A DNA stretch of 1,031 nt from Escherichia coli (lineage in GTDB: Bacteria > Pseudomonadota > Gammaproteobacteria > Enterobacterales > Enterobacteriaceae): the NCBI RefSeq assembly GCF_003334355.1, contig NZ_QOWP01000098.1; one strand, 5' to 3'. The stretch's first letter is position 1; each line of letters begins with the position of its first letter. The notes below the pieces were generated by a model, which was given only the letters and a program-made list of their open reading frames with translations, had not been told where the DNA came from and made no database searches. The translations under genes and the position numbers were made by a program. This document shows, in pieces, positions 1-1,031 of this stretch.

Positions 1-120
1 ATTGGTGCCCCCACCGGCGTGGCCTGTTCGGTGTGCCCCGGCGGAGTGACGTCCGGCCATCCGGTCAATCCCCTGCTCGGTGCAAAGGTCCTTCCCGGTG
101 AAACCGACATCGCCCTGCCC
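1..120 (+). other. C-terminal part of a PAAR-like domain (PAAR_RHS type) within the Rhs CDS; domain boundary approximate
   Basis: The segment IGAPTGVACSVCPGGVTSGHPVNPLLGAKVLPGETD has two Cys and one His in a Gly/Pro-rich context, consistent with the metal-binding cone of PAAR domains. It resembles the region just after the N-terminal PAAR motif of E. coli Rhs proteins. The start of the domain and of the gene should lie roughly 100 nt upstream of the window. Confidence 0.55.
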
Positions 121-1031
121 GCCCCGCTGCCGTTCATCCTCTCCCGCACCTACAGCAGTTACCGGACAAAAACGCCCGCGCCGGTGGGGAGCCTCGGCCC
201 CGGCTGGAAAATGCCTGCGGATATCCGCTTACAGCTGCGCGATAACACACTGATACTCAGTGATAACGGCGGCAGAAGCCTGTATTTTGAGCACCTGTTT
301 CCCGGTGAGGACGGTTACAGCCGCAGCGAGTCACTGTGGCTGGTGCGCGGCGGCGTCCTGAGACTGGATGAAGGTCACCGGCTGGCCGCACTCTGGCAGG
401 CGCTGCCGGAAGAACTCCGCTTAAGTCCGCATCGTTATCTGGCGACAAACAGTCCGCAGGGGCCGTGGTGGCTGCTCGGCTGGTGTGAGCGGGTGCCGGA
501 AGCGGATGAGGTGCTGCCTGCGCCGCTGCCGCCGTACCGGGTACTGACCGGGCTGGTGGACCGCTTCGGGCGCACACAGACGTTCCACCGCGAAGCCGCC
601 GGTGAATTCAGCGGCGAAATCACCGGCGTGACGGATGGTGCCGGGCGTCACTTCCGGCTGGTACTGACCACGCAGGCGCAGCGGGCAGAAGAAGCCCGGC
701 AGCAGGCCATTTCCGGCGGGACGGAACCGTCCGCTTTTCCTGATACCCTGCCGGGTTACACCGAATATGGCCGGGACAACGGCATCCGTCTGTCTGCCGT
801 GTGGCTGACGCACGACCCGGAATACCCGGAGAATTTACCTGCCGCGCCGCTGGTGCGCTATGGCTGGACGCCACGCGGCGAACTGGCGGTGGTGTATGAC
901 CGTAGTGGCAAACAGGTGCGCAGCTTTACTTACGATGATAAATACCGGGGCCGGATGGTGGCGCACCGTCACACGGGCCGGCCGGAAATCCGTTACCGTT
1001 ACGACAGCGACGGGCGGGTGACAGAACAGCT
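1..1031 (+). CDS. Rhs-family protein (PAAR-linked polymorphic toxin, probable T6SS effector), N-terminal region; partial CDS open at both ends, codon phase starts at nt 1
   Basis: Frame +1 is open for all 343 codons, which is very unlikely by chance over 1 kb. The translation carries hallmark Rhs N-terminal stretches (GAPTGVACSVCPGG, NPLLGAKVLPGETD, LPFILSRTYSSYRTKTPAPVG, GPWWLLGWCERVP, LPAPLPPYRVLTG, GEITGVTDGAGRHFRLVLTTQAQRAEEAR) and ends in YD-repeat motifs (RYRYDSDGRV). Codon usage (ctg, ccg, gcg, ggc) fits Enterobacteriaceae. The family is recognised from memory of E. coli Rhs proteins; the paralog (rhsA/B/C/D-like) cannot be assigned without a search. Confidence 0.9.
   Translation, partial: MGAPTGVACSVCPGGVTSGHPVNPLLGAKVLPGETDIALPAPLPFILSRTYSSYRTKTPAPVGSLGPGWKMPADIRLQLRDNTLILSDNGGRSLYFEHLFPGEDGYSRSESLWLVRGGVLRLDEGHRLAALWQALPEELRLSPHRYLATNSPQGPWWLLGWCERVPEADEVLPAPLPPYRVLTGLVDRFGRTQTFHREAAGEFSGEITGVTDGAGRHFRLVLTTQAQRAEEARQQAISGGTEPSAFPDTLPGYTEYGRDNGIRLSAVWLTHDPEYPENLPAAPLVRYGWTPRGELAVVYDRSGKQVRSFTYDDKYRGRMVAHRHTGRPEIRYRYDSDGRVTEQ
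880..939 (+). other. YD-repeat-like motif within the Rhs CDS (ELAVVYDRSGKQVRSFTYDD)
   Basis: YD dipeptides followed by R/G-rich turns fit the beta-hairpin YD/RHS repeat pattern. This is a protein-level repeat, not a DNA repeat. Confidence 0.5.
976..1031 (+). other. Canonical RHS/YD repeat within the Rhs CDS (GRPEIRYRYDSDGRVTEQ)
   Basis: RYRYDSDGRV matches the RHS repeat consensus RxxYxYDxxGR(L/V). This marks the start of the repeat shell that continues beyond the window. Confidence 0.7.

What the first reader, a model, noticed from the sequence alone, without database searches (positions are those of the whole stretch)
1..120. PAAR-like N-terminus implies T6SS spike-tip loading; gene start and a probable vgrG partner should sit just upstream
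The window opens inside a Cys/His-containing, Gly/Pro-rich segment that resembles the end of a PAAR domain. Established knowledge: PAAR-Rhs proteins cap the VgrG spike, and their genes commonly sit directly downstream of vgrG (and sometimes an EagR/DUF1795 chaperone gene). Because the frame is already open at nt 1, the start codon must be upstream.
Basis: partly seen in the sequence, partly recalled or inferred. Interest (0 to 1): 0.4.

Follow-up and report, generated by a model that had tools for sequence, protein, structure and literature searches.

The report
Start of an orphan E. coli rhs gene
The window is the well-known 5' part of an E. coli Rhs toxin gene: a PAAR motif does lie 27 codons upstream, but it is only one of the three repeats of a true PAAR domain, and in E. 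coli this gene start sits behind housekeeping genes, not behind vgrG.

Summary
The window (frame 1 open throughout) is codons 28-370 of an E. coli RHS element core gene. It is 100% identical to copies next to rpmE and next to ybfA. The ATG lies 81 nt upstream and gives MSGKPAARQGD…, so the predicted upstream start and a literal PAAR motif are real.

Three parts of the reading fail or need correcting:
- Only nt 1-6 belong to the PAAR-like match. Nt 7-60 encode an invariant CxxC-containing linker. Nt 60|61 aligns with the Tse5 K47|P48 self-cleavage site. Nt 55-288 encode the DUF6531 plug.
- The PAAR element is a single repeat, equal to the last third of a PAAR domain. It scores below the family thresholds and lacks the metal-ligand residue. 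Sister Rhs proteins with three repeats before the same linker pass easily.
- No vgrG or Eag gene lies upstream. Four housekeeping junctions (yibF, ybfA, rpmE, nikR) account for 11,734 of 11,760 copies in 5,426 E. coli genomes.

The module is vgrG-linked elsewhere: in 25 of 51 loci in other Enterobacterales and in a paralogue in E. coli's own T6SS cluster. The closest known relatives are Tse5 ("cryptic PAAR-like" N-terminus) and the published "neighborless" E. coli Rhs family. This is already known and of low interest.

The parts
1..1031 (+). Internal part (codons 28-370 of 1394-1399) of an E. coli RHS element core gene, frame 1
   Evidence: The frame is open throughout. The window is 100% identical to rhs genes in NZ_CP147048 and NZ_CM143727. 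NCBIfam RHS_core matches positions 28-378 at 703 bits on the fragment. The full-length proteins score 2644 bits against a cutoff of 2000.
1..6 (+). Last two codons (I28, G29) of the single PAAR-like repeat (protein residues 2-29); the rest of it lies upstream of the window
   Evidence: PAAR matches cover residues 2-29 only and align with the last repeat of PAAR proteins: NF033420 positions 68-94 of 94, 9rce_c residues 71-98, 4jiv_D residues 67-93.
7..60 (+). Conserved linker (residues 30-47, APTGVACSVCPGGVTSGH), inferred to be the anchor segment that threads through the plug into the shell
   Evidence: It is invariant across Enterobacterales. It has the same position and length as Tse5 residues 30-47, which are anchored inside the shell (PMC10684867). 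The Tse5 sequence for this stretch comes from P0291. The anchor role is inferred: AlphaFold left residues 1-44 below pLDDT 50.
25..36 (+). Invariant CxxC (C36-S-V-C39); function unknown
   Evidence: It is present in 199 of 204 short-N-terminus relatives and also in the three-repeat relatives. Tse5 has a single Cys in this stretch.
58..63 (+). Predicted N-terminal autoproteolysis site, H47|P48 (between nt 60 and 61)
   Evidence: PVNPLLGAK aligns with the first residues of the Tse5 shell chain 8cp6_B. Tse5 cleaves at K47|P48, shown by N-terminal sequencing (PMC10684867). P48 is invariant and residue 47 is variable. Cleavage in E. coli Rhs is inferred, not shown.
55..288 (+). DUF6531 domain, the N-terminal plug of the Rhs shell
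   Evidence: Pfam PF20148 matches window residues 19-96 at E = 2.4e-17 and full-protein residues 46-123 at E = 4e-18. The AlphaFold model is confident from about residue 45 onward. Its best PDB match is the Tse5 shell, E = 5e-29.
289..1031 (+). First strands of the YD-repeat shell
   Evidence: RHS_core profile match. The model has pLDDT of about 90 or more for most of residues 125-420, which is beta-rich. Weak RHS_repeat and YD_repeat hits fall at window residues 291-343.

Best explanation
The window is the 5' part of an orphan ('neighborless') E. coli rhs core gene. The complete protein begins 27 codons upstream with a 47-residue N-terminal fragment built like that of Pseudomonas aeruginosa Tse5. 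It has three parts:
- One PAAR-like beta-hairpin repeat (residues 2-29), homologous to the third repeat of a real PAAR domain.
- An invariant 18-residue CxxC-containing linker (residues 30-47, window nt 7-60), which most likely threads through the DUF6531 plug and anchors the fragment inside the Rhs shell.
- A probable self-cleavage site, H47|P48 (nt 60|61).

The likely mechanism is that, in strains with a T6SS, the exposed PAAR-like repeat docks the loaded Rhs cage onto a VgrG spike encoded elsewhere in the genome. In E. coli that would be the VgrG of the T6SS cluster, whose own downstream rhs carries the same module. The C-terminal toxin would then be fired into neighbouring cells.

Shown here: the gene identity, the start codon, the domain boundaries, the single-repeat nature, the absence of vgrG and Eag genes upstream, and the vgrG linkage of the same module in relatives. 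Inferred: anchoring, cleavage, and loading onto VgrG in trans.
For: Identity: the window is 100% identical to E. coli rhs genes, and the full-length proteins score 2644 bits against the RHS_core cutoff of 2000.

Start: ATG at -81 nt with an AAGGA RBS and upstream in-frame stops in two unrelated flanks. Homology between rhs copies begins at the RBS/ATG, and GC content jumps from 47-49% to 60-67% there.

Single repeat: PAAR matches are limited to residues 2-29 and to the last repeat of the profile.

Three-repeat relatives: P0215, P0214, P0172 and P0226 have three repeats followed by the same IG..G.ACS.CP…G|PVNP linker. They pass the PAAR profiles at E = 2e-13 to 3e-21 (NCBIfam, three of them tested) and 2e-19 (Pfam, P0215).

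Tse5 parallel: the numbering is the same (47|P48), DUF6531 follows immediately, and the Tse5 shell is the best sequence and fold match. Tse5 residues 17-47 share the GSxxVx(I/V)G…C.P…G|PVNP layout. Tse5-NT is described as a cryptic PAAR-like domain needed for VgrG1c-dependent delivery (PMC10684867, PMC7376260, PMC4067218).

vgrG linkage of the module: 25 of 51 loci in other Enterobacterales have VgrG (TIGR03361, 601 bits) ending 16-169 nt before the ATG with no gene between. 2,932 of 5,426 E. coli genomes have a vgrG-rhs junction whose Rhs starts with the same module; in the O103:H2 example examined it lies within the T6SS cluster. Orphan and vgrG-linked copies within a genus have nearly identical N-termini.

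Literature: neighborless Rhs-CTs are reported to be related to T6SS2-Rhs. Rhs-CT5 (Z5014) is reported to mediate antagonism, and killing by Rhs-CT3 (a gene annotated rhsA_2 in ETEC) is lost in a ClpV2 (T6SS2) mutant (review PMC6730261).
Against: - One repeat cannot form the threefold PAAR cone. The position that supplies a His or Cys metal ligand in real PAAR repeats is Tyr15 here and varies in relatives.
- E. coli K-12, which to my knowledge has no T6SS, keeps four intact rhs genes with this N-terminus.
- The orphan and the vgrG-linked E. coli N-termini differ at more than ten positions, so use of that VgrG is not assured.
- AlphaFold gave no confident structure for residues 1-44.
- Cleavage and anchoring have never been shown for an E. 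coli Rhs protein in anything I could read.
- The primary paper behind the 'neighborless' Rhs experiments (Ma et al. 2017b) was not readable here; I rely on a review's summary.
Confidence: 0.7

Rival explanations
1. The single PAAR repeat is a vestige. Orphan E. coli Rhs proteins would then not be loaded on VgrG at all and would act independently of the T6SS, for example as intracellular toxin-antitoxin-like modules or through another export route.
For: - The N-terminus fails the PAAR family thresholds and lacks the metal-ligand residue.
- 99.8% of E. coli copies are unlinked to vgrG.
- K-12 keeps intact copies, apparently without a T6SS.
- Salmonella Rhs elements are reported to behave as type II toxin-antitoxin modules inside macrophages (PMC7043789; title and abstract only).
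- The EHEC in-silico study says it is unclear which VgrG, if any, moves RhsA-C (PMC7216683).
Against: - Residues 1-47 are under strong constraint across genera. Several positions are invariant or nearly so out to Betaproteobacteria (D11, G22, V26, G29 and G33 invariant; P5, A6, R8 and S23 at 90% or more), which is unexpected for a vestige.
- The same module lies directly after vgrG in half of the non-E. coli loci and in E. coli's own T6SS cluster.
- Tse5, with the same layout, needs VgrG1c (PMC4067218).
- A review reports antagonism by Z5014 and loss of Rhs-CT3 killing in a T6SS2 mutant (PMC6730261).
Confidence: 0.17
2. The Rhs protein does ride on VgrG, but a separate full PAAR protein caps the spike. 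In this reading the conserved linker, plug or shell makes the VgrG contact, and the single repeat is only accessory.
For: - The linker (residues 28-42) is more conserved than the repeat.
- One repeat cannot cover a threefold tip.
- The VgrG upstream of the E. coli paralogue is canonical, with about 80 unassigned C-terminal residues that could be an adaptor.
Against: - In Tse5 the equivalent linker is buried inside the shell, not exposed (PMC10684867).
- No stand-alone PAAR gene was seen between vgrG and rhs in any locus; the gaps are 16-169 nt.
- Three-repeat sister proteins place a full PAAR exactly where the single repeat sits, which argues for the same docking role.
Confidence: 0.1
3. One reading: the window ends a canonical PAAR domain of a PAAR-Rhs effector whose gene lies directly downstream of its vgrG, possibly with an EagR chaperone gene between them.
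For: - There is a literal PAAR motif upstream and the start codon is upstream as predicted.
- The architecture is common in the wider Rhs family (PMC4524185).
Against: - The element is one repeat, not a domain.
- rpmE or ybfA lies upstream in the identical loci.
- 11,734 of 11,760 E. coli copies sit at four housekeeping junctions.
- There is no DUF1795 gene, and no hydrophobic segment in the first 150 residues (maximum hydropathy 1.03).
Confidence: 0.03

Closest known systems
Tse5 / RhsP1 (PA2684) of Pseudomonas aeruginosa, PDB 8cp6
   Same: - It has a 47-residue N-terminal fragment described as a 'cryptic PAAR-like' domain.
- The fragment is followed directly by a cleavage site before Pro48 (PVNP…) and by the DUF6531 plug.
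- It is the best sequence hit (E = 8.5e-17) and the best fold hit (E = 5e-29, 31% identity).
- Tse5 residues 17-47 share the GSxxVx(I/V)G-linker-Cys-Pro-Gly layout.
   Different: - tse5 lies directly downstream of vgrG1c and depends on it (PMC4067218), whereas this E. coli gene lies behind housekeeping genes.
- Tse5 has one Cys in the linker rather than the invariant CxxC.
- The residue before the cleavage site is Lys rather than His/Asn/Ser.
- The sequence of Tse5 residues 1-16 was not available to me.
'Neighborless' E. coli PAAR-Rhs family (Rhs-Nb) and T6SS2-Rhs, from Ma et al. 2017b as summarised in PMC6730261; 'orphan' rhsA-D in PMC7216683
   Same: This is that family. The genes are E. coli rhsA/B/C-type, lie outside vgrG islands, and are evolutionarily related to the Rhs encoded after vgrG in the T6SS cluster. 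My junction census and the O103:H2 locus reproduce this picture.
   Different: Those papers speak of an 'N-terminal PAAR motif' or 'PAAR domain'. My tests show it is one repeat of three and scores below the family thresholds. I could not read the primary paper.
Canonical PAAR proteins (e.g. Vibrio cholerae VCA0105, PDB 4jiv; Pfam PF05488; NCBIfam NF033420)
   Same: Residues 2-29 (GKPAARQGDMTQYGGSIVQGSAGVRIG) align residue for residue with the last repeat (GKPAARVGDAVDCGG-VLQGASSVNIG).
   Different: - There is one repeat instead of three.
- The metal-ligand Cys/His position is Tyr15.
- Scores are 14-17 bits, far below the thresholds.
Three-repeat PAAR-Rhs sister proteins (P0215, P0214, P0172, P0226; metagenomes and a Burkholderiaceae MAG)
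   Same: They share the linker (IG..G.ACS.CP..), the PVNP site and the DUF6531 plug. P0215 lies inside a T6SS cluster directly after vgrG.
   Different: They carry about 60 extra N-terminal residues, which make two more PAAR repeats. They pass the PAAR profiles at E = 2e-13 to 3e-21 (NCBIfam, three tested) and 2e-19 (Pfam, P0215).
prePAAR / Eag-chaperoned Rhs effectors (P. protegens RhsA 7q97; E. cloacae RhsA/RhsB; S. marcescens Rhs1)
   Same: They share the Rhs shell, the DUF6531 plug and the N-terminal cleavage position.
   Different: - Those proteins have N-terminal regions of roughly 25-45 kDa (RhsA, Rhs1 and TseI; PMC10684867) with predicted transmembrane segments and a full PAAR domain.
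- E. cloacae RhsA/RhsB and S. marcescens Rhs1 have an EagR (DUF1795) gene upstream (PMC4524185).
- None of these features is present here.

Membership tests
E. coli RHS element core protein (NCBIfam NF041261 RHS_core) | End-to-end match to the equivalog profile above the curated cutoff of 2000 bits | tested here: met
   The full-length proteins of L001 and L002 score 2644 bits over profile positions 1-1261. The window fragment alone scores 703 bits over positions 28-378.
E. coli RHS element core protein (NCBIfam NF041261 RHS_core) | GC-rich core followed by an AT-rich variable C-terminal extension after a DPxG…DPxG motif | tested here: met
   The core is 58-67% GC, against 47-49% in the flanks and 30-42% in the C-terminal region. 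DPIG-N18-DPLG lies at residues 1221-1246 of the L001 protein. My regular expression did not find the motif in the L002 protein.
PAAR domain (Pfam PF05488; NCBIfam NF033420) | Profile match above the family threshold | tested here: not met
   NF033420 gives 15.3-17.3 bits against a cutoff of 124 (E = 0.004-0.016). PF05488 gives E = 0.051 at 14.3 bits. None of the 120 listed relatives carries a precomputed PF05488 call.
PAAR domain (Pfam PF05488; NCBIfam NF033420) | Three PAAR repeats that together form the cone | tested here: not met
   Only residues 2-29 match, and only to profile positions 68-94 of 94. Just 47 residues precede the plug. Sister proteins with 101-108 residues there have three repeats.
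PAAR domain (Pfam PF05488; NCBIfam NF033420) | His/Cys metal ligand after PAARxGDxxx in each repeat | tested here: not met
   Tyr15 aligns with Cys of 4jiv_D and His of 9rce_c. The position varies (K, I, T, M, V) in relatives. That this residue is a metal ligand rests on my own knowledge of PAAR structures.
PAAR domain (Pfam PF05488; NCBIfam NF033420) | Binds the tip of the VgrG beta-helix | not testable with these tools
   This needs a complex structure or an interaction assay. No multimer prediction was available.
Tse5-type Rhs (short cryptic PAAR-like N-terminal fragment) | An N-terminal fragment of about 47 residues, immediately followed by P48-VNP and the DUF6531 plug | tested here: met
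   In addition, 170 of the 223 collected relatives have exactly 47 residues before PVNP.
Tse5-type Rhs (short cryptic PAAR-like N-terminal fragment) | Tse5 shell is the closest solved structure | tested here: met
   Foldseek rank 1 is 8cp6_B, at E = 5e-29, TM-score 0.67 (query-normalised) and 31% identity.
Tse5-type Rhs (short cryptic PAAR-like N-terminal fragment) | Autoproteolysis at residue 47|Pro48, with residues 30-47 anchored in the shell | not testable with these tools
   This is inferred from alignment only. AlphaFold left residues 1-44 below pLDDT 50.
Tse5-type Rhs (short cryptic PAAR-like N-terminal fragment) | Gene directly downstream of its cognate vgrG | tested here: not met
   rpmE or ybfA lies upstream in the identical loci, and 11,734 of 11,760 E. 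coli copies sit at housekeeping junctions. The feature is met by 25 of 51 relatives elsewhere and by the E. coli T6SS-cluster paralogue.
prePAAR / Eag-dependent Rhs effectors | DUF1795 (Eag) chaperone gene upstream | tested here: not met
   No such gene appears in the 12 kb upstream of L001 or L002. In vgrG-linked relatives the gap between vgrG and rhs is 16-169 nt.
prePAAR / Eag-dependent Rhs effectors | N-terminal transmembrane segment(s) between a prePAAR motif (AARxxDxxxH) and the PAAR domain | tested here: not met
   The maximum 19-residue hydropathy in the first 150 residues is 1.03. The motif reads AARQGDMTQY, with Tyr in place of His. The motif definition is from my own memory of Ahmad et al. 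2020.

The most novel reading that the evidence does not exclude
The 47-residue fragment (one PAAR repeat plus an invariant CxxC linker) may be a distinct, minimal spike-docking device rather than a degenerate PAAR. For example, three Rhs N-termini might together build a PAAR-like cone on one VgrG trimer, or one repeat might bind a single face of the tip. Either arrangement would allow many unlinked 'neighborless' rhs genes to share one VgrG in trans. No structure has resolved this part; Tse5 residues 1-29 are disordered.
Probability: 0.12. Interest if true: 0.5.

Novelty: already known. Interest (0 to 1): 0.13.

Why it matters
It matters little beyond correct annotation. Rhs elements of E. 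coli have been known for decades. Their lack of linkage to vgrG has been published ('orphan' or 'neighborless' Rhs), and the short cryptic PAAR-like N-terminus has been described for Tse5.

The useful corrections are:
- Calling this N-terminus a 'PAAR domain' overstates it, because it is one repeat of three.
- The window segment itself is the conserved linker, cleavage site and plug, not PAAR.
- Synteny with vgrG cannot be assumed for this rhs clade in E. coli.

The open question it touches is how a single repeat docks on a threefold spike, and why strains without a T6SS keep these genes. That question is real but cannot be settled from sequence.

Tried and rejected
- AlphaFold2 of residues 1-1200 with a 22-sequence alignment gave mean pLDDT 62 and below 50 for residues 1-126, so it said nothing about the N-terminus.
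- AlphaFold2 of residues 1-420 with 52 sequences gave a good model (pLDDT 87) from about residue 45 on, but residues 1-44 stayed below 50. The hairpin and the anchoring could not be tested.
- I tried to obtain the Tse5 N-terminal fragment from the PDB sequence search. No chain turned up, probably because the deposited chain has fewer than 20 residues. A protein search with the Tse5 shell start returned only two short fragments; one of them gave Tse5 residues 17-47, but residues 1-16 remain unseen.
- E. cloacae RhsA/RhsB were considered as experimental precedents for the short type and rejected, because both have EagR genes upstream and so belong to the long-N-terminus class (PMC4524185).
- The consensus scan found no sigma-70-like promoter upstream in L001. 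It found only the rpmE terminator-like hairpin.
- No Rfam match on either strand of the window at E up to 1.
- The repeats found in the window are short two-copy matches of no evident meaning.
- I could not cross-tabulate, genome by genome, the presence of the T6SS vgrG-rhs junction against the presence of orphan copies, because the search tool lists only one place per record.

Full report
**What the window is.** Frame 1 is open over all 1031 bases, and the other forward frames are full of stops. The DNA is 100% identical to rhs genes in two E. coli chromosomes and at least 99% identical in 2,464 more. NCBIfam RHS_core aligns window residue 1 with profile position 28. The full-length proteins of the two identical loci (1394 and 1399 aa) score 2644 bits against a curated cutoff of 2000. 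Pfam finds DUF6531 at window residues 19-96. The window is therefore codons 28-370 of a classical E. coli RHS element core gene. GC content is 58-67% in the core, 47-49% in the flanks and 30-42% in the variable 3' end, which is the textbook composition of an Rhs element.

**The upstream sequence.** One perfect match lies between rpmE and an IS1/yiiX region (L001). The other lies between ybfA and ybfC, which is the K-12 rhsC position (L002). In both, the annotated CDS starts 81 nt before window nt 1. The two flanks are unrelated up to AAGGA-N7-ATG, and each has an in-frame stop 12 or 5 codons before the ATG with no alternative start between. The completed N-terminus is MSGKPAARQGDMTQYGGSIVQGSAGVR|IGAPTGVACSVCPGGVTSGH|PVNPLLGAK…, where the first bar marks the window start.

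**Is it a PAAR domain?** It is not. On the completed N-terminus, NCBIfam T6SS_PAAR_dom gives 15-17 bits (cutoff 124, E = 0.004-0.016) and Pfam PAAR_motif gives E = 0.05. Every match covers residues 2-29 only and aligns them with the last of the three repeats of real PAAR proteins: profile positions 68-94 of 94, 4jiv_D residues 67-93 and 9rce_c residues 71-98. The residue aligned with the Cys or His of those repeats is Tyr15, and it varies in relatives. None of the 120 listed relatives carries a precomputed Pfam PAAR call.

An exhaustive HMMER search then found sister Rhs proteins with 101-108 residues before PVNP. These residues form three consecutive PAAR repeats followed by the same IG..G.ACS.CP…G|PVNP linker. 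The three tested against NCBIfam pass the PAAR profile at E = 2e-13 to 3e-21, and P0215 passes Pfam at 2e-19. One of them, P0215, sits inside a T6SS cluster directly after vgrG. The E. coli type is therefore a version that keeps only the third repeat. Of the 223 collected relatives, 204 have 41-55 residues before PVNP, and 170 have exactly 47.

- Only nt 1-6 (I28, G29) fall inside the PAAR-like repeat.
- Nt 7-60 encode residues 30-47, the most conserved part of the N-terminus. IGAPTGVACSVCPGG is invariant from Escherichia to Rahnella, and the CxxC is present in 199 of 204 short-type relatives.
- Nt 61 onward (PVNPLLGAK) aligns with the very first residues of the Tse5 shell chain 8cp6_B.

In Tse5, N-terminal sequencing placed a self-cleavage between K47 and P48. 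Tse5 residues 30-47 are anchored inside the shell by the DUF6531 plug, and residues 1-29 are disordered (PMC10684867). A fragment identical to Tse5 (P0291) gives its residues 17-47, VISTGSPTVHVGSSAVGLADRVSACVPLVGK|PVNP, which has the same layout as ours. An AlphaFold model of residues 1-420 is confident from about residue 45 onward (mean pLDDT 87), and its best PDB match is the Tse5 shell (E = 5e-29, 31% identity). Residues 1-44 stayed below pLDDT 50, so the anchoring and the hairpin remain inferences.

**Is vgrG upstream?** It is not for this sequence. The 201-nt 5' end occurs at 11,760 places in 3,882 of 5,426 complete E. coli genomes. Junction-specific 280-nt queries count 3,737 genomes for yibF-rhs, 3,703 for ybfA-rhs, 2,177 for rpmE-rhs and 2,117 for nikR-rhs. 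Together these make 11,734, or 99.8% of the places. Sampled loci agree. No DUF1795 (Eag) gene is present, and the first 150 residues hold no hydrophobic segment.

The module is vgrG-linked elsewhere, however. In species-representative genomes of other Enterobacterales, 25 of 51 loci have a VgrG ORF or VgrG fragment (TIGR03361, 601 bits for the representative) ending 16-169 nt before the rhs ATG with nothing between. The other 26 loci are orphans behind assorted housekeeping genes. Within a genus, orphan and linked copies have nearly identical N-termini. In E. coli itself, 2,932 genomes hold a vgrG-rhs junction. In O103:H2 it closes the main T6SS cluster (tssB…hcp-vgrG-rhs), and that Rhs starts with the same one-repeat module. 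Its VgrG is canonical.

**Literature.**
- Wood et al. call the Tse5 N-terminus a 'cryptic PAAR-like' domain (PMC7376260).
- Hachani et al. show that tse5 lies next to vgrG1c and needs it (PMC4067218).
- A review of Ma et al. 2017b reports 'neighborless' Rhs-CTs (Rhs-Nb) related to the T6SS2-cluster Rhs, antagonism by Rhs-CT5 (gene Z5014, the O157 rhsA locus), and loss of Rhs-CT3 killing in a ClpV2 (T6SS2) mutant (PMC6730261).

My census and comparisons reproduce that picture independently.

**Mechanism and verdict.** The most likely reading (confidence 0.7) is a Tse5-like layout. An exposed single PAAR-like hairpin is tethered by a linker buried in the shell, with probable cleavage at H47|P48. 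In T6SS-positive strains it would load the Rhs cage onto a VgrG encoded elsewhere. Three points count against this or remain open:
- How one repeat docks on a threefold tip is unexplained.
- The invariant CxxC has no known role.
- Intact copies persist in K-12, which to my knowledge has no T6SS.

The main rival is that the repeat is vestigial and the orphans act without the T6SS. The strong conservation of residues 1-47 and the direct vgrG linkage of the same module in relatives argue against it.

Everything essential here is already known, so interest is low. The residual novelty lies only in the unresolved docking mode of the one-repeat module.

Noticed in passing
window 25-36 (tgt tcg gtg tgc); protein C36-x-x-C39: An invariant CxxC lies in the linker between the PAAR-like repeat and the cleavage site. 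It is kept in both one-repeat and three-repeat relatives, while Tse5 has only one Cys there. Its role is unknown (metal site, or a disulfide staple?).
   Followed up: partly
L001 11840-11960, L002 11840-11960, L004 8921-9041, L008 5113-5233: The rhs copies behind ybfA and yibF share about 80 nt of leader upstream of the ATG. The copies behind rpmE and nikR share only about 17 nt (AAAAGGATTTTACG). So the duplicated unit extends beyond the CDS in two pairs of loci.
   Followed up: partly
(annotation columns); L001 11920-16104: The PGAP gene names rhsA, rhsB and rhsC are assigned regardless of chromosomal position. For example, the rpmE-linked gene is called rhsC and yibF-linked genes are called rhsB. 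The names cannot be used to infer the locus.
   Followed up: no
L011, L035, L051, L062: Contigs binned as Lentisphaerae, Oscillospiraceae, Collinsella and Akkermansia muciniphila MAGs carry this enterobacterial rhs 5' end at 72-99% identity, three of them with a vgrG fragment upstream. These are most likely mis-binned Enterobacteriaceae contigs.
   Followed up: no
P0290, P0291: Short fragments labelled Klebsiella pneumoniae and Salmonella sp., from contigs of 231-261 nt, are 82% and 100% identical to P. aeruginosa Tse5. This is probably contamination or mislabelling in the source assemblies.
   Followed up: no
L059 8001-8379 and L061 8001-8379 (Citrobacter amalonaticus): Two orphan rhs copies are frameshifted right after the CxxC…GG (stop after about 46 codons), so they are pseudogenes. 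Several other loci (L013, L015, L019, L022, L042, L044, L050, L055) have rhs ORFs truncated at 150-830 codons.
   Followed up: no
L065 12529-17242 (E. coli O103:H2): The T6SS-cluster rhs is followed by ydcD and ISAs1 remnants. From memory, K-12 rhsE is also followed by ydcD, so K-12 rhsE may be the remnant of the vgrG-linked copy.
   Followed up: no
window 115-132 and 514-531: An 18-nt direct repeat (89% identical) encodes LPAPLP twice (…ALPAPLPF… and …VLPAPLPPY…). It may be a recurring strand motif of the shell or a chance match.
   Followed up: no
L069 8001-12829 (Paracidovorax avenae): A betaproteobacterial one-repeat Rhs is also an orphan, sitting behind ars genes. It carries a TseH-type toxin with an Imm58 immunity gene and a string of small downstream ORFs. 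So the unlinked arrangement is not peculiar to E. coli.
   Followed up: partly
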